In this document: positions 79-5,931 of the stretch, piece by piece
Numbering within the stretch: the stretch's first letter is position 1
How the letters are laid out: every line of letters begins with the position of its first letter
Virus record (IMG/VR): IMGVR_UViG_3300034062_005626
DNA length: 64,000 nucleotides
Reading direction: 5' to 3' (one strand)
From: a virus
Taxonomy: Duplodnaviria; Caudoviricetes
The notes under the pieces: generated by a model
Told to the model about the DNA's origin: nothing
Seen by the model: the letters and a program-made list of their open reading frames with translations, nothing else
The model's database searches: none
Made by a program: the position numbers and the translations under genes

Positions 79-714
79 ATGTCATCAGCAGAAGAATTAA
101 TGCAAAGATTGGCCGTGTCCAAAAAAATTATGGACAGACAGAGCACAATAAAAAGAGGTGAAATGCCACAAAATATTAATGCAGCACCAATGTTAGAGAG
201 TTTTAATACTCCTCAAGCAACATATAACTTACCTCAAGAATTTTTGTCTGAAAGCCCATCGACAAGTCAAAAATCAAATTATGACCCAACAAAACCGATT
301 GAAGAATCAAAAATTTTAAATTCAAAATTACCAGATGAAATTAAAAAATTAATGATTGAAAGACCTATAGTACAACCTAATACTATGTCAAGTGCGTCTA
401 TATCTGATGATATAATCGAGGGGGCACAAAGGTTAATGAAAATGGAGAATAAAAACTCACAACCATCCGAATCATTACCAAAATCAAACACCAAAACAAC
501 AACTCAAAACACACAATCACAATTCAACATGAATGAAATGAGAACAATGATTAGAGATGTTGTAAGAGATGTTGTAAGAGATGTTATTAGAGAAGAATTA
601 CAAGATGCGGGTGTCATTAGTGAATCATCTGAAGATGCTAACGAATCAATCCAATTTAAAGTTGGTAAGCACATATTTTTAGGTAGAGTTACAAAAATTC
701 AAAAGGTAAAATAA
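79..714 (+). CDS. hypothetical phage protein
   Basis: 211-aa ORF followed by a hairpin terminator; contains an RDVV-RDVV-RDVI-REE repeat helix. Confidence 0.8.
   Translation: MSSAEELMQRLAVSKKIMDRQSTIKRGEMPQNINAAPMLESFNTPQATYNLPQEFLSESPSTSQKSNYDPTKPIEESKILNSKLPDEIKKLMIERPIVQPNTMSSASISDDIIEGAQRLMKMENKNSQPSESLPKSNTKTTTQNTQSQFNMNEMRTMIRDVVRDVVRDVIREELQDAGVISESSEDANESIQFKVGKHIFLGRVTKIQKVK
553..592 (+). repeat. 12-bp tandem repeat (AGAGATGTTGTA x2, AGAGATGTTATT) encoding RDVV repeats
   Basis: read directly from sequence. Confidence 0.85.
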
Positions 715-737
715 CTTTAAACAAAATCAAAAAATGC

Positions 738-764
738 AATCCACCTATTTTAGGTGGATTTTTT
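738..764 (+). terminator. intrinsic terminator
   Basis: AATCCACCTA-TTT-TAGGTGGATT followed by a T run. Confidence 0.85.
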
Positions 765-792
765 ATTTTATTACCTTTTGATAGGTCGGGAC

Positions 793-799
793 TATTTAT
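793..799 (+). promoter_or_regulatory. putative phage late promoter TATTTAT (homing endonuclease)
   Basis: recurrent motif, 6 nt before ATG 806 and downstream of a terminator. Confidence 0.6.
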
Positions 800-805
800 C
801 ATATT

Positions 806-1753
806 ATGGGGAAAAAAATTCAATTAGACGAAGAAGAAGTAGTCAAACAATATCTTAATGGTAAAAGTAGTTCAATTGTTGCGACAGAATTTAAAGTCTC
901 CAAACCAAAAATACTCAGTATTTTAAAAAAACACAACGTAATAAGAAAAAAAGACAGATGTAAAAGTTTGAATTATAAATTAATCAACGAGTATTACGTT
1001 GTTGAAAGAATTTGCCCAACATGTAAGGAAATAATTCAAACTAAGTCAAAAAATAAAATTATTGCGTGTAGAAATCACTTTGTTAAAATTGACAAAAATT
1101 GTGATTGTAAAAATTGTTCATTAAAAAAACAAATAGGTAAAGGAAATCCGTTTTACGGAAAAAAACACGATGAAAAAACAAAAAATAAAATTTCAAAAAG
1201 TAGAAAGGGGAAGGCAAAAGGTTTTGAAAATGGAATGTCAAATCCTGACAATAAAAAAAGAGCTCACGATAATTTAAAACAAAAGTGGAATAATGGTGAA
1301 ATGGAACATGTTAGAAAAATGTTTTCAGAAACTATGAAAAATACTAGAAGGATGGGAAAAATAAAATCAATTAATAGGTCTAAAAAAGAGAAAGAAATAT
1401 TGGAAGAAATAAAAAATATGGGTTACCAAGTAAAACATTCATTAAAAATTGACACAAAAATATGTGACATATATATACCTAAATTAAATTTAATTATTGA
1501 ATATAATGGAGATTATTGGCATTGTAACCCAAAAAAATACGACGCAAGTTATTATCACCAAGTAAAGAAAAAAACCGCACAAGAATTATGGGAATATGAT
1601 AATAATAAAATTGACTTAATAAAAAGTAATGGTTATTTTTTTGAAGTGGTGTGGGAGTCTGAATTGAAATCAAACCCACAAATAATAAATAACTTAATAA
1701 AAAAACATGAATCAAGAGAGCAATCCAACTCCAGACGTTCGCAAAAAAATTAG
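806..1753 (+). mobile_element. free-standing homing endonuclease (HTH + Cys-rich + NUMOD3 + Vsr/DUF559-like EDxHD nuclease domain)
   Basis: N-terminal HTH-like segment; CPTC..CKNC; NUMOD3 GNPFYGKKHDEKTKNKISKSRKG; C-terminal DIYIPKLNLIIEYNGDYWH...VVWESE. Confidence 0.8.
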
Positions 1754-2967
1754 GGTTCTATGCGTCCCTAGCGACCGTACTGGAGTTGGCTGAATTTAAA
1801 GGAAAATTTAGGTCTGTAGACCCCCACGTAATGTTACAAAATAATCACTCAGATGAATTTCACGTAGATATAGATTACGACCCAAAAATTAATGATTATA
1901 ACTATTGGAAACAATATGACATTGTCCATTTCCATAGGTCAATTGGTCAAGATTTTGACCAAGCGAATAAGTTAATTCAAACATTAAATTCTATTGGTGT
2001 AATTACAATTATGGATTTGGACGACTATTGGTTGCCAACTAAAGAACACCCAATCCATCAACTAATCATACAGAATAAAATAAATGAAAAGATAGTTGCA
2101 AACCTAAAAGTGGCCGCACACGTCACAACAACAACATCTTTATTTGCATCAGAAATATCTAAAATTAATAAAAACGTATACGTTCTTCCAAACGCAATTA
2201 ATCCAAAAGAACCTCAATTCAATCATGAAACAAAACCTTCAGATAAACTTCGTTTTGGATGGTTGGGTGGTTCTTCTCACTTACATGATTTAAAATTATT
2301 AAACGGTGTAACAAATAAATTAAAAGATAGTCATGACAAATTTTCATTGTATCTATGTGGTTTCGATACAAGAGGAAGTGTTACTGAAATTAATAAAGAA
2401 ACGGGGGAACAAAAACAAAGGCCGATAAGGCCAGAAGAAACCGTATGGGCACGTTATGAAGAAATTTTTACTGACAATTATAAGTTAGTTTCTCCCCAAC
2501 ATCTTGAATACCTGAAAAAATTTGAGGATTCTGAATATATTATGGAGTCTGAACCTTTTTACAATCGAGTTTGGACAAAACCTGTTACAAGTTACGCTTC
2601 AAATTATAGATTATTTGATGTTTCATTATCACCGATTGTGAATCATATTTTTAACCGAGTTAAGTCACAATTAAAAGTTATTGAAGCAGGTTTTTATAAA
2701 AAAGCAATTATCGCTTCAAATGTTGGACCATATACCATTGATTTAAAACATGCATTAAAAAATGGTCAGTTCTCTGACGGAAACGCACTTTTAGTTGATG
2801 AAGTAAAAAATCATAGTGATTGGGCTAAAAACATGAAAAAATTAATTGATAATCCTAACTTTGCTTATGACTTGGGACAACGATTGTATGAAACGGTGAA
2901 AGACACATATGATTTGAATATGGTCACAAAAAATAGAGCGGAACTTTATAAATCTTTAATAAAATGA
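1707..2967 (+). CDS. GT-B (GT4-like) glycosyltransferase interrupted by a 13-nt insertion (1791-1803)
   Basis: ATG 1707 gives MNQESNPTPDVRKKIRVLCVPSDRTGVG then TGA 1791; the +1 frame continues (G)KFRSVDPHVMLQ... to 2967; removing 13 nt restores SDRTGVGKFRSVDP; C-terminal GT4 motif KSQLKVIEAGFYKKAIIASNVGPY. Confidence 0.8.
1725..1789 (+). other. GC-rich RNA stem-loop immediately 5' of the interruption
   Basis: CCAACTCCAG (1725-1734) is the perfect reverse complement of CTGGAGTTGG (1780-1789); extends via ACG/CGT with a 1-nt bulge; inner hairpin TAGGG (1751-55)/CCCTA (1766-70). Confidence 0.75.
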
Positions 2968-3692
2968 TAAACATACCTATTAACAAAATTTTATTTATCG
3001 ACATTGAAACTGTTGGTATATGTAAGGATTGGCGGACTTGTCAAGAAAATCACCCAAAAATTGCTGAACAATTTGTTAAATACTTTGATTGGTTTTTAAA
3101 GAGATTTCCTGAAGATGATGTTGAGACAAATGGTCTTGAAGAAGAACTTCAAAAAATGAATGATGTTTATTCTTCAAGAGCGGCACTTGTTCCGGAGTTT
3201 GCTAAAATTGTTTGCGTATCAATGGCATTTGTTTTAGAAAACGGTGAAGTAAAAAAACAAACTTTTAAAAATGACAGCGAAGAGGATTTATTGTTGGAAG
3301 TTAGAAATTTATTAGACCGTTGTCACAAATTAGATTTTTATTTGTGTGGTCATAATTTAAAAAACTTTGACATCCCTATGTTGGCAAAACGTATGATTAT
3401 TAACAATATTATGCCATCAAAAATACTCCCGTCATACGACACTAAACCGTGGGAAGTAAAAGCAATTGACACAAAAGAAATTTGGCAATACGGTTCGTAT
3501 AGTTCAATTGGTTCTTTAGATTTAATGTGTTCTTGTTTAGATATTCCAACACCAAAAGATGGTGAAATAAATGGGGGTATGGTTCATCAGGCATATTGGA
3601 ATCAGAACAGACTTGATGAAATTGCAAAATATTGCGAAAAAGACGTTGATGTTTTGATTGAATCAATAAAAAAATTAAAAAGTTTAAAATAA
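2964..3692 (+). CDS. predicted 3'-5' exonuclease (PolB-exo/DnaQ-like)
   Basis: DEDD motifs FIDIET, GHNLKNFDIP, YCEKDV. Confidence 0.85.
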   Translation: MINIPINKILFIDIETVGICKDWRTCQENHPKIAEQFVKYFDWFLKRFPEDDVETNGLEEELQKMNDVYSSRAALVPEFAKIVCVSMAFVLENGEVKKQTFKNDSEEDLLLEVRNLLDRCHKLDFYLCGHNLKNFDIPMLAKRMIINNIMPSKILPSYDTKPWEVKAIDTKEIWQYGSYSSIGSLDLMCSCLDIPTPKDGEINGGMVHQAYWNQNRLDEIAKYCEKDVDVLIESIKKLKSLK

Positions 3693-4294
3693 TGTTTGAA
3701 AATATAAAAGATTTAAAAAATAGCATGAAAGCTTTAAAAGAGCTTCAATCTCAGTTTGGTAATGTTGACATGACAAACCCTGAAAGTATGTTGAAATCCA
3801 TGGGACTTAATGTTGATGAAATCAATCAACATTTTGAAGGTCAATTTACATCAGAAGTTAATTTAAATTTTGTAAATAATAGTGAAAATCAAAATCCTGA
3901 ATACGCATATAAAGGTGATTCGGGATTTGATTTAAGAGCTTCGGAAGAAAAATGGATTTTTCCAAACTCAAGAGTTTTAATACCTACAGGTTTAAAATTT
4001 GACATTCCTGATGGTTATGAAATACAAGTAAGGTCTAAAAGTGGATTAGCCTTAAATCAAGGATTATTTGTTTTAAATTCACCTGGCACGGTTGATAGTG
4101 GATACTTAGGTGAAATACAAGTTATTTTATTTAACACAACAACAGAAAAAGTTAAAATAGAAAAGGGTCAAAAAATTGCACAAGCGGTTCTTTGTCCTGT
4201 TGTTAATGGCAAATGGGTTAATTTAACGCAAATTTCAAATTTAGGCTCAAAAGACCGAAATGATAATGGATTTGGTTCAACAGGTTTAGTATGA
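3692..4294 (+). CDS. dut: trimeric dUTPase with N-terminal extension
   Basis: motifs SGFDL, RSKSGLA, GTVDSGYLGEI, RNDNGFGSTG. Confidence 0.95.
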   Translation: MFENIKDLKNSMKALKELQSQFGNVDMTNPESMLKSMGLNVDEINQHFEGQFTSEVNLNFVNNSENQNPEYAYKGDSGFDLRASEEKWIFPNSRVLIPTGLKFDIPDGYEIQVRSKSGLALNQGLFVLNSPGTVDSGYLGEIQVILFNTTTEKVKIEKGQKIAQAVLCPVVNGKWVNLTQISNLGSKDRNDNGFGSTGLV

Positions 4295-5931
4295 TTACAG
4301 TAGGATTTTCAACAAGAAAAATAGATGACAATTTTGTCTCGATGTTAAAAAAAACATCAGGAGTAAGTAAATTGGAAATAATACCAATCGAAAACAATGG
4401 TGTATATTCTCTTAGTGAAGCTTACAATAAAATTTTAAATGACTCCACTAATGACATTGTTGTATTGATGCATGACGACATTTATTTTGACAGTAAAAAT
4501 TGGGCGTCAAAAGTTTTAAATTATTTTAAAAGAAATTCTGACTACGGCATTCTTGGAGTTGCAGGTTCAACATCATTACCTTCTTCTGGTAAATGGTGGG
4601 AAGATTTTTCAAAACTTAAAGGAATTGTTAATCATGAACATGAAGGAAAAAAATGGGAGTCAAAATATTCACCAAGCAAAGGTAATCAGTTAGATGACGT
4701 ATTGTTAGTAGATGGGTTATTTATAGCAATTAATAAAAAAAATATTAAACACAACTTTAACGAAGAAGTTAAAGGGTTTCACTTTTACGATGTAGATTTT
4801 TCTTTTAGAAATTATTTAGAAGATGTTAAAATAGGTGTTATGTATGATGTTAGAGTCACACATAAATCGATTGGTATGACTAATGAACAATGGGAAAAAA
4901 ATAGAGAGGAATTTGCAGAAAAATATAAAGATGTTTTACCCGTTAAAATAAAAAGAAATCTTACAATCGATTCACCTTTAAAGGTATTATTATCTTGTTT
5001 ATTTTTTAAAACTTTTACAGGTTCAGAAATGTATGTTTATGAATTAGCAAGAGGATTAAAAAAATTAAATTGTGATGTTACGGTACTATCAGATATTAAT
5101 GGGCCTTTATCTCAATTAGCAAAACAACAAGGAATCAAAGTTGTTTCATTTCAAGATGCTCCTGGTTACAAAATGGGAGATGGAAAGTGGGGATTTAATA
5201 CACCACAAGGGTTTCAACCGACACAACCAAATGTAATGTATAAAATTGGTGATGTTAATTATGATATTATACATACCCAACATACTCCAGTTTCAAATCA
5301 AATGTGTCAGATGTATCCAAACATCGATAAAATATCAACAATACATTCTGAAGTCATAGAATTAGAAAATCCAATTATTAACGATTCAATTAAAAAATAT
5401 ATTTGCATTCGTCCTGAGATACAAAACCATATTGTCGAAAAATTTAATATTGATAAAAATAATACTGAAGTAATTTATAATCCAATCGACACAAAAAGAT
5501 TCAATTCAAACAATATTAAAGATGATAATTATGTTTTGTTTGTTGGTACAATTGATTATTTAAGAGAAAATACAATAAGAGATTTAGTAACATACTCCTC
5601 TGAAATTAATAAAGAATTATGGTTAGTTGGTGAAAACAAATCAAATTACTTGGATGATTTATTAAAAAATCCACACGTAAAACATTTTAACTCAACAAGT
5701 AAAGTTGAACAGTATGTTAAAAACTGTTCTGAAACTGCGGGTATTCTTTTGGGAAGAACGACTATTGAAGGTTGGATGTGTAATAAATCTGGGTGGATTT
5801 ACAATGTTGAAAGTAGTGGTTATATTTTAGATAAAAAATTACATACCCCGCCGACAGATGTTAGTAAATTCGACTCAATTGAAGTGGCAAAAAAAATAAA
5901 AGAAGAATATATTAAAGTTTTAAATGATTAA
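4291..5931 (+). CDS. two-domain glycosyltransferase (GT2-like + GT4-like)
   Basis: LMHDDIYF and FHFYDVDFS in the N-half; TGSEMYVYELARGL in the GT-B C-half. Confidence 0.8.
   Translation: MITVGFSTRKIDDNFVSMLKKTSGVSKLEIIPIENNGVYSLSEAYNKILNDSTNDIVVLMHDDIYFDSKNWASKVLNYFKRNSDYGILGVAGSTSLPSSGKWWEDFSKLKGIVNHEHEGKKWESKYSPSKGNQLDDVLLVDGLFIAINKKNIKHNFNEEVKGFHFYDVDFSFRNYLEDVKIGVMYDVRVTHKSIGMTNEQWEKNREEFAEKYKDVLPVKIKRNLTIDSPLKVLLSCLFFKTFTGSEMYVYELARGLKKLNCDVTVLSDINGPLSQLAKQQGIKVVSFQDAPGYKMGDGKWGFNTPQGFQPTQPNVMYKIGDVNYDIIHTQHTPVSNQMCQMYPNIDKISTIHSEVIELENPIINDSIKKYICIRPEIQNHIVEKFNIDKNNTEVIYNPIDTKRFNSNNIKDDNYVLFVGTIDYLRENTIRDLVTYSSEINKELWLVGENKSNYLDDLLKNPHVKHFNSTSKVEQYVKNCSETAGILLGRTTIEGWMCNKSGWIYNVESSGYILDKKLHTPPTDVSKFDSIEVAKKIKEEYIKVLND

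What the first reader, a model, noticed from the sequence alone, without database searches (positions are those of the whole stretch)
1707..1812. 13-nt stop-containing insertion splits a glycosyltransferase: candidate miniature ribosomal bypass (hop)
Seen: the annotated ORF (TTG 1786) lacks the first GT-B beta-strand. An upstream ATG (1707) encodes it as ...KIRVLCVPSDRTGVG, ending at GGC (1788-90) followed at once by TGA (1791-93). The body resumes in the +1 frame after GGA (1801-03) with KFRSVDPH. Skipping exactly TGAATTTAAAGGA gives SDRTGVGKFRSVDP, a DxxGxGxxRxxxP motif typical of these enzymes. Geometry: Gly take-off codon, immediate stop, short gap, Gly landing codon. Established: T4 gene 60 uses Gly take-off, stop, 50-nt gap and Gly landing. 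An SD-like GGAG (1782-85) lies 2 nt before the take-off codon, similar to the prfB recoding site. Inference: a new, much shorter programmed bypass. The GGC/GGA third-base mismatch is a weakness. Alternatives are a +1 frameshift (giving GVGEFKGKFR) or a split enzyme re-initiating at TTG.
Basis: partly seen in the sequence, partly recalled or inferred. Interest (0 to 1): 0.92.

Follow-up and report, generated by a model that had tools for sequence, protein, structure and literature searches.

The report
Natural ribosome-hop site in phage glycosyltransferase
A glycosyltransferase gene of an uncultured freshwater jumbo phage is broken by 13 untranslatable bases that ribosomes most likely hop over; related phages carry gaps of every length from 5 to 13 bases at the same codon, each behind a conserved RNA hairpin, which would make this a natural family of short translational bypass sites.

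Summary
ATG 1707 opens a 28-codon ORF ending GGC (1788-90) TGA (1791-93). The body resumes at AAA 1804, after GGA (1801-03). Thousands of uninterrupted homologues read ...SDRTGVG|KFRSVDPH, the sequence obtained by skipping the 13 nt.

Among related phage contigs I found 43 distinct interrupted alleles and 68 intact ones. Gaps of 5, 6, 7, 8, 9, 10, 11, 12 and 13 nt all occur at this codon, in all three frame relations. Each starts with a stop codon. Each ends with a codon matching the take-off codon: Gly..Gly or, in GVS lineages, Ser..Ser.

Every interrupted allele keeps an ATG-started 26-29 codon ORF1 under purifying selection and a full ORF2 (dN/dS 0.03-0.2). Every one also has a ~65-nt hairpin whose 3' arm ends at the take-off codon. 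No intact allele has this hairpin, including about 30 that sit beside the same homing endonuclease.

Best reading: short translational bypassing (a stop-hop) driven by an upstream refolding hairpin, carried on a mobile homing-endonuclease cassette. This works like T4 mobA/gene 60 but is not homologous to it. No protein-level proof exists. This scan has noted similar candidate hops in other phage genes on other DNA.

The parts
806..1753 (+). Free-standing homing-endonuclease gene (315 aa): N-terminal HTH-like region, Cys-rich region, NUMOD3 motif and C-terminal Vsr-like (PD-(D/E)xK) nuclease. Its 3' end overlaps the start of the glycosyltransferase ORF1.
   Evidence: Pfam gives NUMOD3 at E 6e-6 and REase_MTES_1575 at 3e-4, below the cutoff. 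PHROG 3339 'homing endonuclease' scores 1e-12. A profile hit to the I-TevI DNA-binding domain 1i3j scores E 0.003. Presence/absence polymorphism at this fixed site is shown.
1707..1790 (+). Glycosyltransferase ORF1: ATG plus 27 codons (MNQESNPTPDVRKKIRVLCVPSDRTGVG). It encodes an 11-residue cassette-specific extension, strand beta-1, the loop, and the N-cap of helix alpha-1.
   Evidence: Searches give the sequence. The amino-acid profile is the same as in intact alleles, with many synonymous codons. The AF2 model of intact P0001 places beta-1 at residues 4-9 and alpha-1 at 15-31.
1725..1789 (+). 65-nt imperfect hairpin inside ORF1. Its 3' arm (CGUACUGGAGUUGG) ends on the second base of the take-off codon. 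Proposed driver of forward mRNA movement.
   Evidence: Folding gives z -3.5 for the 151-nt context. All 43 interrupted alleles fold at -23 to -35 kcal/mol over 72 nt, against -16.8 at best for 68 intact alleles. For 27 distinct alleles, z is -4.5 against dinucleotide shuffles and -5.5 against synonymous recodings. Covariation is shown. The helix ends at -2 to +1 of the take-off codon in 43/43.
1788..1790 (+). Take-off codon GGC (Gly17 of the mature enzyme).
   Evidence: The take-off codon is GGY or AGY in 43/43 interrupted alleles, against GGY in 36/68 intact ones.
1791..1793 (+). Stop codon TGA in the A site at take-off.
   Evidence: A stop immediately follows the take-off codon in all 43 alleles recognised: TGA 23, TAA 19, TAG 1. 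The search motif required this stop, so alleles with a sense codon there would have been missed.
1791..1803 (+). 13-nt coding gap TGAATTTAAAGGA (stop, 7 nt, landing codon), absent from uninterrupted homologues.
   Evidence: L002/L154 has the variant TGAATTAAAAGGA. Gap lengths of 5 to 13 nt occur in relatives.
1801..1803 (+). Landing codon GGA.
   Evidence: The codon before the resume codon belongs to the same family as the take-off codon in 42/43 alleles. Gly/Ser take-off against GGN/AGY landing gives Fisher p 6e-6.
1804..2967 (+). Glycosyltransferase ORF2 (387 codons plus stop), beginning with resume codon AAA (KFRSVDPH...). GT-B fold, GT4-like.
   Evidence: tblastn of P0001 aligns residues 17-404 to 1801-2964. 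dN/dS is 0.03-0.2 among interrupted alleles. Foldseek matches GlgM, PglA, MshA, BshA and PimA.

Best explanation
The window holds a mobile cassette. It consists of a homing-endonuclease gene, a rebuilt 5' end of the neighbouring glycosyltransferase gene that folds into a hairpin, and a 13-nt stop-containing gap. The glycosyltransferase is most likely made as one polypeptide by short translational bypassing.

Inferred mechanism: ribosomes start at ATG 1707 and translate 28 codons, melting the hairpin at 1725-1789. They pause with peptidyl-tRNA-Gly on GGC (1788-90) in the P site and TGA in the A site. The apical and middle helices have already refolded behind the ribosome. Zipping of the basal helix, whose 3' strand is still inside the ribosome, pulls the mRNA forward. 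The tRNA anticodon lets go, re-pairs 13 nt downstream on GGA (1801-03), and decoding resumes at AAA 1804. The product reads ...SDRTGVG-KFRSVDPH..., as in uninterrupted homologues.

Shown here: the anatomy, its conservation, the codon covariation, the structure covariation, selection on both ORF parts, the link to the endonuclease, and a sharp recombination boundary at the gap.

Inferred: the hop itself, its efficiency, the driving role of the hairpin, and the idea that the gap arose at or protects the endonuclease's target site.
For: 1. Skipping the 13 nt reproduces the sequence of thousands of intact homologues.

2. Across 43 distinct interrupted alleles the gap is 5, 6, 7, 8, 9, 10, 11, 12 or 13 nt long, so all three frame relations occur. 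Close relatives sharing nearly the same ORF1 differ between 11 nt (L221) and 12 nt (L214, L220). The interior of the gap varies freely.

3. The gap always begins with a stop codon (required by the search motif). The codon before the resume codon matches the take-off codon: GGY to GGN in the 37 Gly take-off alleles of the census and in L253/L256, and AGY to AGC in 5 of 6 GVS alleles. The exception is AGT to GGC, which tRNA-Ser(GCU) could pair through a G.U pair. Fisher p is 6e-6. Landing identity was not a search criterion.

4. ORF1 is ATG-started, 26-29 codons long and intact in 43/43 alleles. ORF2 is full-length wherever the contig allows. ORF1 residues I, L, S, D, G, V, G are invariant while codons vary synonymously: five Leu codons, and both AGY and TCN for Ser. 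ORF2 dN/dS is 0.03-0.2, including clades that are wholly interrupted.

5. A hairpin of 18-27 bp ends at -2 to +1 of the take-off codon in 43/43 alleles. Its MFE does not overlap that of intact alleles. It is far more stable than synonymous recodings. It covaries at Gly1 nt3 (A-U, G-C, C-G), at Val nt3 (all four Watson-Crick pair types, with 12 of 43 unpaired in the MFE fold) and at other pairs.

6. The hairpin tracks the gap, not the endonuclease. About 30 endonuclease-bearing alleles with intact junctions lack both hairpin and extension. Interrupted alleles whose endonuclease has decayed or been deleted keep both.

7. In 76 diverse homologues the spacing from G15 to the invariant R20 is 6 residues in 76/76. 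Products with 1-4 extra residues would therefore be anomalous.

8. The 13 nt are present in DNA contigs of many runs and in one RNA-seq contig.

9. There is mechanistic precedent. Synthetic stop-hops are known, and pairing of mRNA as it exits the ribosome has been proposed as the forward driver in T4 gene 60 (PMC5009743; bioRxiv 10.1101/2024.12.09.627546).
Against: There is no protein, reporter or ribosome-profiling evidence, so efficiency is unknown.

The host and its tRNAs are unknown. No tRNA gene lies in the window or in the nearest held fragment.

In the window itself the take-off codon GGC and landing codon GGA differ at the wobble base.

Nothing obvious blocks release factor at the stop, unlike the A-site stem-loop of gene 60.

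A 28-residue nascent chain is short, so drop-off could be high.

RNAalifold finds no column-consistent consensus structure on MAFFT alignments because helix registers shift between lineages. The structure evidence therefore rests on per-sequence folding, controls and within-family covariation.

Alleles are related by descent and by recombination, so counts overstate the number of independent events.

The RNA-seq contig could come from carried-over DNA.
Confidence: 0.8

Rival explanations
1. Conventional recoding that differs by allele. In the window this is a +1 frameshift at GGC-TGA giving GVG-EFKG-KFR. In 6-, 9- and 12-nt alleles it is stop-codon readthrough. In 5-, 8- and 11-nt alleles it is a -1 or +2 shift. 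The extra residues would stay in the protein.
For: The body frame is open back to TTG 1786. An upstream refolding hairpin and a stop codon could also favour small forward slips. A G-rich, SD-like stretch lies 2 nt before the P-site codon, loosely as in prfB.
Against: It needs three or more different mechanisms at one codon, without slippery sequences; GGC cannot re-pair on GCU. It does not explain why the codon before the resume codon switches to AGC when the take-off codon is AGY. Near-identical alleles differ between 11- and 12-nt gaps. In the window the zero frame holds a second stop (TAA 1797-99). The G15-R20 spacing is invariant in 76/76 homologues.
Confidence: 0.06
2. Split or truncated enzyme. 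Translation ends at TGA 1791. A separate product starts at TTG 1786, or at the ATG of VMLQNN. The enzyme then works without strand beta-1, or with the 28-residue peptide supplied in trans.
For: Gene callers annotate it this way: 393-aa and 378-aa products. SD-like purines lie near the landing site.
Against: TTG 1786 abuts GGAG with no spacer, is base-paired in the hairpin, and is out of frame with the body in most other gap classes. The downstream Met is not conserved; several alleles have I-K-L or V-K-L there. No in-frame start codon follows the gap. Beta-1 is the central strand of the N-terminal Rossmann domain. This reading does not explain the matched codons.
Confidence: 0.06
3. The gene was inactivated by an endonuclease-linked indel and is a young pseudogene in each lineage, kept open only because each invasion is recent.
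For: Interrupted alleles are scattered over the glycosyltransferase tree, with at least 10 changes. There is a sharp identity break at the gap. Many downstream parts therefore have a recent history as intact genes.
Against: The cassette's own ORF1 copy has diverged widely yet stays open, with conserved residues and synonymous change. The linked endonucleases have diverged to 44-67% identity or decayed while the gap, the hairpin and both ORFs persist. Wholly interrupted clades with dS of 0.9-2 show dN/dS of about 0.08-0.09. None of the 80 loci retrieved by the enzyme body alone shows a second lesion or a lost N-terminal motif, except two cut by contig ends.
Confidence: 0.05
4. The 13 nt are removed or changed at the RNA level (a micro-intron or editing), or they are an assembly artefact.
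For: None found.
Against: The same insert appears in independent assemblies and in 18 runs from 18 studies. No indel appears in the contigs laid on the stretch. An RNA-seq contig spans 1665-1826 with the 13 nt present. Gaps of 5-6 nt are too short for any known splicing.
Confidence: 0.02

Closest known systems
Phage T4 gene 60 50-nt translational bypass with the MobA homing-endonuclease cassette (Huang 1988; Bonocora 2011; Manning & Atkins, bioRxiv 10.1101/2022.08.31.505936)
   Same: A phage gene is interrupted by an untranslated gap. Take-off is at a Gly codon followed at once by a stop. Landing is on a matched Gly codon. [quoted passage not shown] The gap travels with a homing-endonuclease gene as a mobile cassette.
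   Different: The two are not homologous. The endonuclease here is NUMOD3 plus a Vsr-like nuclease, not HNH MobA. The host gene is a glycosyltransferase, not topoisomerase. The gap is 5-13 nt rather than 50 nt, so there is no room for a take-off or A-site stem-loop, a gap SD or a forward barrier. The hairpin abuts the take-off codon instead of ending 9 nt before it. Take-off is at codon 26-29, and no gene 60-like nascent-peptide signal is evident. Many endonuclease-bearing alleles have no gap.
Synthetic 'stop-hops' in E. coli, where 9 nt specify one amino acid (+6 and +5 hops; Weiss et al. 1987, as summarised in PMC5009743)
   Same: Matched codons flank a stop codon and the P-site tRNA re-pairs 5-6 nt downstream. 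This is exactly the geometry of the 6-nt alleles (GGY-stop-GGN) and the 5-nt alleles (AGC-UG-AGC, GGU-UA-GGU).
   Different: Those are artificial, low-efficiency events without stimulators. The 2016 review states that no natural in-frame stop-hop is known. Here the site is natural, conserved and coupled to a dedicated hairpin, and it extends to 13 nt.
Candidate 10-nt bypass in the large terminase of Streptomyces phage phiHau3 (PMC10732093)
   Same: A short gap of about 10 nt in a phage gene. Take-off is after a Gly codon (GWG). The A-site codon is slow to decode. A stem-loop and an SD-like sequence are proposed 5' of the gap. The junction peptide was seen by mass spectrometry in E. coli for a UAA variant.
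   Different: The A-site codon there is the rare sense codon UUA and a regulatory role is proposed. No homing-endonuclease link is described in the parts read here, and no series of gap lengths at one site.
Magnusiomyces capitatus mitochondrial byps (Lang 2014; Nosek 2015, as cited in PMC5009743 and bioRxiv 10.1101/2022.08.31.505936)
   Same: [quoted passage not shown]
   Different: Those are 27-55 nt GC-cluster-like inserts at 81 sites. They depend on special mitochondrial translation and have an unassigned sense codon in the A site.
prfB (RF2) programmed +1 frameshift
   Same: A stop codon in the A site and a G-rich, SD-like stretch a few nt upstream of the P-site codon.
   Different: prfB slips one base on CUU-U. 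Here no re-pairing in the +1 frame is possible, and most gap lengths cannot be corrected by a +1 shift.

Membership tests
Translational bypassing (hop) site | Two ORF segments on one mRNA together encode a protein collinear with uninterrupted homologues once the gap is skipped | tested here: met
   ORF1 ends ...SDRTGVG and ORF2 starts KFRSVDPH. Intact homologues read ...SDRTGVGKFRSVDPH.
Translational bypassing (hop) site | Take-off and landing codons can pair with the same peptidyl-tRNA | tested here: met
   Across 43 alleles the pairs are: GGT to GGT 14, GGC to GGT 13, GGT to GGC 3, AGC to AGC 4, AGT to AGC 1, GGY to GGA 7, AGT to GGC 1. The Gly/Ser switch covaries. The window's own pair, GGC to GGA, matches in two of three bases.
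Translational bypassing (hop) site | A slow-to-decode codon (stop or rare codon) sits in the A site at take-off | tested here: met
   TGA at 1791-93. A stop directly follows the take-off codon in 43/43 alleles recognised; the search motif required it.
Translational bypassing (hop) site | The gap is not decoded: its length and sequence are free of frame and coding constraint | tested here: met
   Gap lengths of 5-13 nt in all three frames. Alleles with near-identical ORF1 have 11 or 12 nt. The interior varies: CTAAA, ATCAA, ATAAA, CCAACA, CAAAAC, ATTTAAA, ATTAAAA.
Translational bypassing (hop) site | A junction peptide or full-length product is demonstrated | not testable with these tools
   Needs a reporter expression assay and mass spectrometry.
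T4 gene 60 / MobA cassette (homologous family) | HNH MobA endonuclease inserted in the topoisomerase II large-subunit gene | tested here: not met
   The endonuclease has NUMOD3 plus a Vsr-like nuclease. The gene is a GT-B glycosyltransferase.
T4 gene 60 / MobA cassette (homologous family) | About 50-nt gap with the take-off codon in the 5' side of a take-off/A-site stem-loop | tested here: not met
   The gap is 13 nt here and 5-13 nt in relatives. The take-off codon lies at the 3' end of an upstream hairpin.
prfB-type +1 programmed frameshift | The P-site tRNA can re-pair in the +1 frame, and one +1 shift restores the frame in all members | tested here: not met
   GGC to GCU cannot re-pair. 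Gaps of 5, 6, 8, 9, 11 and 12 nt are not corrected by a +1 shift.
GT-B fold, GT4-like glycosyltransferase | Two Rossmann-like domains, with an N-terminal beta-1, Gly-rich loop and alpha-1 | tested here: met
   The AF2 model of intact homologue P0001 has pLDDT 96.9. Foldseek matches GlgM, PglA, MshA, BshA and PimA at E 1e-14 to 1e-10. Pfam Glyco_trans_1_4 scores below its cutoff. PHROG 7162 'glycosyltransferase' scores 2e-45.
Free-standing homing endonuclease | A nuclease gene with DNA-binding modules, present or absent at one fixed intergenic site among close relatives, with flanking sequence co-converted | tested here: met
   The gene lies between the 211-aa upstream gene and the glycosyltransferase in some contigs and is absent in close relatives. 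Identity falls from 0.89 just after the gap to 0.68 just before it in 8 close pairs.
Free-standing homing endonuclease | Cleaves the endonuclease-less allele near its insertion site, while its own allele is immune | not testable with these tools
   Needs a cleavage assay. About 30 endonuclease-bearing alleles have no gap, so the gap is not required for immunity of every variant.

The most novel reading that the evidence does not exclude
This is a minimal, portable bypass module. [quoted passage not shown] On ordinary bacterial ribosomes this is enough to make them hop 5-13 nt efficiently and independently of frame. It would be the first natural family of stop-hops, and direct natural evidence that refolding of mRNA at the ribosome exit drives forward bypassing. 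The module rides on a homing-endonuclease cassette, where the gap may mark and protect the cleavage site. Similar candidates noted by this scan in other phage genes suggest the strategy may be widespread in phages.
Probability: 0.5. Interest if true: 0.95.

Novelty: new variant of a known kind. Interest (0 to 1): 0.9.

Why it matters
Programmed translational bypassing has essentially one well-studied natural example in bacteria and phages, T4 gene 60. The field has long expected shorter counterparts. The 2016 recoding review states that no natural in-frame stop-hop is known (PMC5009743). The 2022 preprint on gene 60 homologues says no similar bypassing had been reported in other phages.

This locus offers a natural allelic series: gaps of every length from 5 to 13 nt, two take-off tRNAs and many hairpin variants. 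That amounts to a ready-made mutational analysis of how far, and with what pairing, a ribosome can slide.

It also bears on a current mechanistic proposal, that pairing of mRNA leaving the ribosome pulls it forward. The only conserved stimulator here is such a hairpin, placed exactly at the take-off codon.

There are practical consequences. Gene callers truncate these genes, giving 393- and 378-aa products. The case also adds a second, non-homologous link between homing endonucleases and bypass gaps.

Tried and rejected
- **GenBank phages.** A megablast search with the window's stretch 700-3000 found no match. The nearest protein match is only 36% identical, so no annotated relative could be used.
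- **Own assembly.** The window's own assembly is not held. The nearest record, G001, is a 63-kb fragment about 20% complete, with no tRNA. The window has no tRNA either. Whether the phage supplies a special tRNA-Gly or tRNA-Ser could not be tested.
- **RNAalifold.** On MAFFT alignments of 173 and 75 columns it gave almost nothing. The helix register shifts between lineages in a codon-constrained alignment. I used per-sequence folding with two kinds of control, and within-family pair counts, instead.
- **GGGG...CCCC pairing.** A possible pairing of GGGG (Gly1) with CCCC of GAC-CCC downstream, enclosing the gap, has only 3 weak pairs and was dropped.
- **Small hairpin in the gap.** A hairpin within the window's gap (1791-1810, UGAAUUU/AAAUUUA with the landing codon in the loop) is not kept in the L002/L154 variant, so it was not counted as part of the element.
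- **SD-like GGAG as a prfB-type stimulator.** Not supported as general. It is GGCG in L214, L220 and L221, and it is always base-paired in the hairpin.
- **Alternative genetic code.** Rejected. TGA, TAA and TAG all end ordinary genes in the window, and frame-breaking gaps cannot be cured by reassigning a stop codon.
- **Variable-gap pattern scans.** Scans starting GGGG or GGAG returned mostly chance hits. Only the 11-nt and 13-nt classes were glycosyltransferase hits.
- **Paralogue check.** No second copy of the glycosyltransferase or the endonuclease lies in the window.
Full report
**1. The observation**

ATG 1707 opens MNQESNPTPDVRKKIRVLCVPSDRTGVG. The last codon is GGC (1788-1790), followed at once by TGA (1791-1793). 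The long ORF is in the +1 frame. After GGA (1801-1803) it reads AAA TTT AGG... = KFRSVDPH and runs to the stop at 2965-2967. The 'annotated' TTG start at 1786 is simply the first start codon in that frame.

Upstream, ORF 806-1753 overlaps ATG 1707. It is a modular homing endonuclease:
- NUMOD3, with a Vsr-like nuclease domain scoring below the Pfam cutoff.
- PHROG 'homing endonuclease'.
- A weak profile hit to the I-TevI DNA-binding domain.

**2. What uninterrupted relatives look like**

The protein family is very large, with more than 7,900 hits in one search. Full-length members of about 404 aa begin MKKIKVLVLASDRTGVGKFRSVDPH.... P0001 is one of them: one search lists it as 100% identical to the window's body, and tblastn gives 99.7% over residues 17-404. 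Skipping exactly 1791-1803 therefore reproduces the family sequence.

The same database holds many products truncated by gene callers. They begin LAEFKGKFR (393 aa) or MLQNN (378 aa) and come from other assemblies.

**3. The insert is not an artefact**

- The 13-nt insert is in IMG/VR contigs L001, L194 and, with one substitution (TGAATTAAAAGGA), L002.
- The stretch 1500-2300 is held by 18 lake or freshwater DNA runs from 18 studies dated 2016-2024.
- Contigs of two of those runs cover it without any difference.
- A 162-nt contig of a metatranscriptome run covers 1665-1826 with no difference and no gap. DNA carry-over in that library cannot be excluded.

**4. A series of gaps at the same codon**

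I retrieved loci in three ways:
- By the enzyme body.
- By degenerate junction patterns.
- By the endonuclease, which is blind to the junction.

A census of all held loci gives 43 distinct interrupted alleles and 68 distinct intact ones. The census recognised an interrupted allele by an N-terminal motif ending directly in a stop codon. The stop is therefore part of the definition, and alleles with a sense codon there would have been missed.

| Gap (nt) | Sequence: take-off codon, gap, resume codon | Loci |
|---|---|---|
| 5 | AGC TGAGC\|AAA | L245 |
| 5 | GGT TAGGT\|AAA | L252 |
| 5 | AGT TGAGC\|TAT | L232 |
| 6 | GGY TGA/TAA GGN | 27 alleles |
| 6 | AGT TAA GGC | L247 |
| 7 | AGC TGAAAGC\|TAC | L268 |
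| 8 | AGC TGACAAGC\|TAC | L258 |
| 9 | AGC TGACTAAGC\|TTT | L227 |
| 10 | GGC TGAATTAGGT\|TAT | L246 |
| 11 | GGT TAACTAAAGGT | L118, L124, L135 |
| 11 | GGT TAAATCAAGGT | L221 |
| 11 | GGT TGAATAAAGGT\|GCT | L253, L256 (a 46%-identical clade) |
| 12 | GGT TAACCAACAGGT | L214 |
| 12 | GGT TAACAAAACGGT | L220 |
| 13 | GGC TGAATTTAAAGGA | the window |

- Every gap starts with a stop codon: TGA 23, TAA 19, TAG 1.
- The codon just before the resume codon was not a search criterion. It belongs to the take-off codon's family in 42 of 43 alleles.
- When the motif is GVS instead of GVG, the landing codon is AGC. Fisher p is 6e-6.
- The exception, AGT to GGC, could still pair with tRNA-Ser(GCU) through a G.U pair.
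- Intact GVS alleles exist (L234, L235), so Ser at this position is functional.
- L214 and L220 (12 nt, in frame) and L221 (11 nt, out of frame) share nearly the same ORF1.

One mechanism covers all of these: the P-site peptidyl-tRNA leaves its codon at a stop and re-pairs on the next matching codon. Frameshifting or readthrough would require a different event for each class. Neither explains the Gly/Ser switch.

**5. Both halves of the gene are maintained**

- All 43 alleles have an ATG-started ORF1 of 26-29 codons. ORF2 is full-length wherever the contig allows; 6 alleles run off their contig.
- In ORF1 the residues I, L, S, D, G, V, G are invariant in the 31 alleles held at that point. Codons vary synonymously, with five Leu codons and both AGY and TCN for Ser. 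This is the same profile as in intact alleles.
- ORF2 dN/dS among interrupted alleles is 0.03-0.2. This includes clades in which every member is interrupted: the 11-nt trio with dS 0.9-2.0, and the 13-nt clade with dS 0.13-0.63.
- In a 76-sequence alignment of diverse homologues (30-53% identity), R20 is invariant. The G15-R20 segment is six residues long in 76/76.
- The AF2 model of P0001 (pLDDT 96.9) puts strand beta-1 at residues 4-9. The junction G17|K18 lies at the N-cap of helix alpha-1.
- The fold is GT-B, GT4-like.

A product lacking ORF1 would lose the central strand of the N-terminal domain. A product with 1-4 extra residues would shift the invariant Arg.

**6. A hairpin that ends at the take-off codon**

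Folding the window's 1700-1850 gives a 65-nt hairpin at 1725-1789. Its 3' arm ends on the second base of GGC (z -3.5).

- Over the 72 nt up to the take-off codon, every interrupted allele folds at -23.1 to -35.4 kcal/mol (mean -29.2).
- The 68 intact alleles reach -16.8 at best (mean -7.8). The two sets do not overlap.
- For 27 distinct sequences the mean z is -4.5 against dinucleotide shuffles and -5.5 against random synonymous recodings. In 26 of them none of 100 recodings was as stable as the natural sequence; in L086 one was.
- The helix has 18-27 pairs. Its last pair lies at -2 to +1 of the take-off codon's first base in 43/43 alleles.

Covariation is clear:
- Gly1 third base: A-U 6, G-C 34, C-G 3.
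- Val third base: U-A 25, A-U 2, G-C 2, C-G 1, U-G 1. It is unpaired in 12 MFE folds.
- Ser/Thr wobble base at -7: six different pair types.

Within three sub-families that share a register, 92-99% of cells are paired, against 26-54% when partners are slid. Compensatory pairs occur in each sub-family.

RNAalifold on MAFFT alignments fails because the register shifts between lineages.

The hairpin follows the gap, not the endonuclease. About 30 endonuclease-bearing alleles with intact junctions have neither the hairpin nor the N-terminal extension that carries its 5' arm (MFE -4 to -8). Interrupted alleles whose endonuclease is reduced to a remnant or deleted keep hairpin, gap and both ORFs.

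**7. The mobile-element context**

- In the first 31 interrupted alleles, 27 have the endonuclease (44-100% identical to the window's) or a remnant of it directly upstream. Among 49 intact alleles retrieved by the enzyme body, 3 do.
- Interrupted alleles are scattered over the glycosyltransferase tree; at least 10 changes are forced.
- In the 8 closest interrupted/intact pairs, identity is 0.89 in the 42 nt after the gap and 0.68 in the 42 nt before it.

The endonuclease, the rebuilt 5' end and the gap therefore move as one unit, with its right boundary at the gap.

[quoted passage not shown] Here that role is only an inference. Many endonuclease-bearing alleles do without a gap.

**8. Proposed mechanism (inferred)**

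With GGC in the P site and TGA in the A site, about the last ten nucleotides of the hairpin's 3' arm are still inside the ribosome. The apical and middle helices have already refolded outside it. Zipping of the basal helix would pull the mRNA forward. The peptidyl-tRNA would then re-pair at the next GGN or AGY codon, 5-13 nt on.

This is the 'pairing of exiting mRNA as forward driver' idea proposed for the gene 60 5' and extended stem-loops (bioRxiv 10.1101/2024.12.09.627546). The 6- and 5-nt alleles have exactly the geometry of the synthetic +6 and +5 stop-hops (PMC5009743).

It is GGCG in three alleles, so an SD role is unproven.

**9. Novelty**

- The 2016 review states that no natural in-frame stop-hop is known, and that shorter counterparts of gene 60 had long been presumed to exist.
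- The 2022 preprint says no similar bypassing had been reported in other phages apart from gene 60 homologues.
- The nearest published case is the candidate 10-nt bypass in the Streptomyces phage phiHau3 terminase.
- Full-text searches for bypassing together with glycosyltransferase or metagenomic phages found nothing else.

I class this as a new variant of a known kind.

Earlier notes of this scan describe similar candidate hops in other phage genes on other DNA: polymerase, terminase, SNF2 helicase and dnaE. I did not test those.

**10. Limits**

- All evidence is comparative or computational.
- The host is unknown. The phage is an uncultured freshwater phage; the nearest held fragment is rated about 20% complete at 63 kb, which suggests a genome near 300 kb.
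- Efficiency, release-factor competition and drop-off are unknown.
- The window's own pair, GGC to GGA, is a two-of-three match.
- Alleles share descent and recombine, so the counts are not counts of independent events.

Noticed in passing
L232:3257-5596 and L258:3664-5778 (also L227, L236-238, L259, L261, L268): In one clade the same glycosyltransferase also carries an insert of about 380 residues in the conserved WLGGS|SH motif (GGSC...HN|SH). This looks like an intein with its own endonuclease domain. The gene is therefore invaded at two conserved motifs by two kinds of mobile element.
   Followed up: partly
L253 and L256 (HE at 2501-3199 on +, glycosyltransferase on the minus strand from about 2300 to 958): A glycosyltransferase clade 46% identical to P0001 has an 11-nt gap (GGT TGAATAAAGGT|GCT) and the hairpin (-27.5 kcal/mol). 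The endonuclease gene lies upstream in divergent orientation.
   Followed up: partly
L010:2990-3020: An intact allele reads TGVF|KFRSGDP (GGA GTT TTT AAA), with Phe at the take-off position and Gly in place of Val two residues after the Arg. It is an unusual variant of the motif with no gap and no endonuclease.
   Followed up: no
window 1791-1810: The 13-nt gap can pair with the first codons of ORF2 (UGAAUUU/AAAUUUA), leaving the landing codon in the loop. This is not conserved in the L002/L154 variant, so its relevance is doubtful.
   Followed up: partly
window 2964-3692, 3692-4294, 4291-5931: Downstream genes are a PolB-type 3'-5' exonuclease-like protein, an apparent dUTPase, and a GT2-GT4 fusion glycosyltransferase. 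The interrupted gene sits at the head of a large glycan-gene region that other notes of this scan describe.
   Followed up: no
L206, L208, L213, L223-226, L229-231, L239-244, L248-251, L254, L255, L257, L260, L266: Endonuclease-bearing alleles with an intact junction nearly all read GGA GTT GGA AAA at the junction, whereas endonuclease-less alleles mostly read GGT GTT GGT AAA. This could reflect target-site immunity through synonymous changes, or simply shared descent.
   Followed up: no
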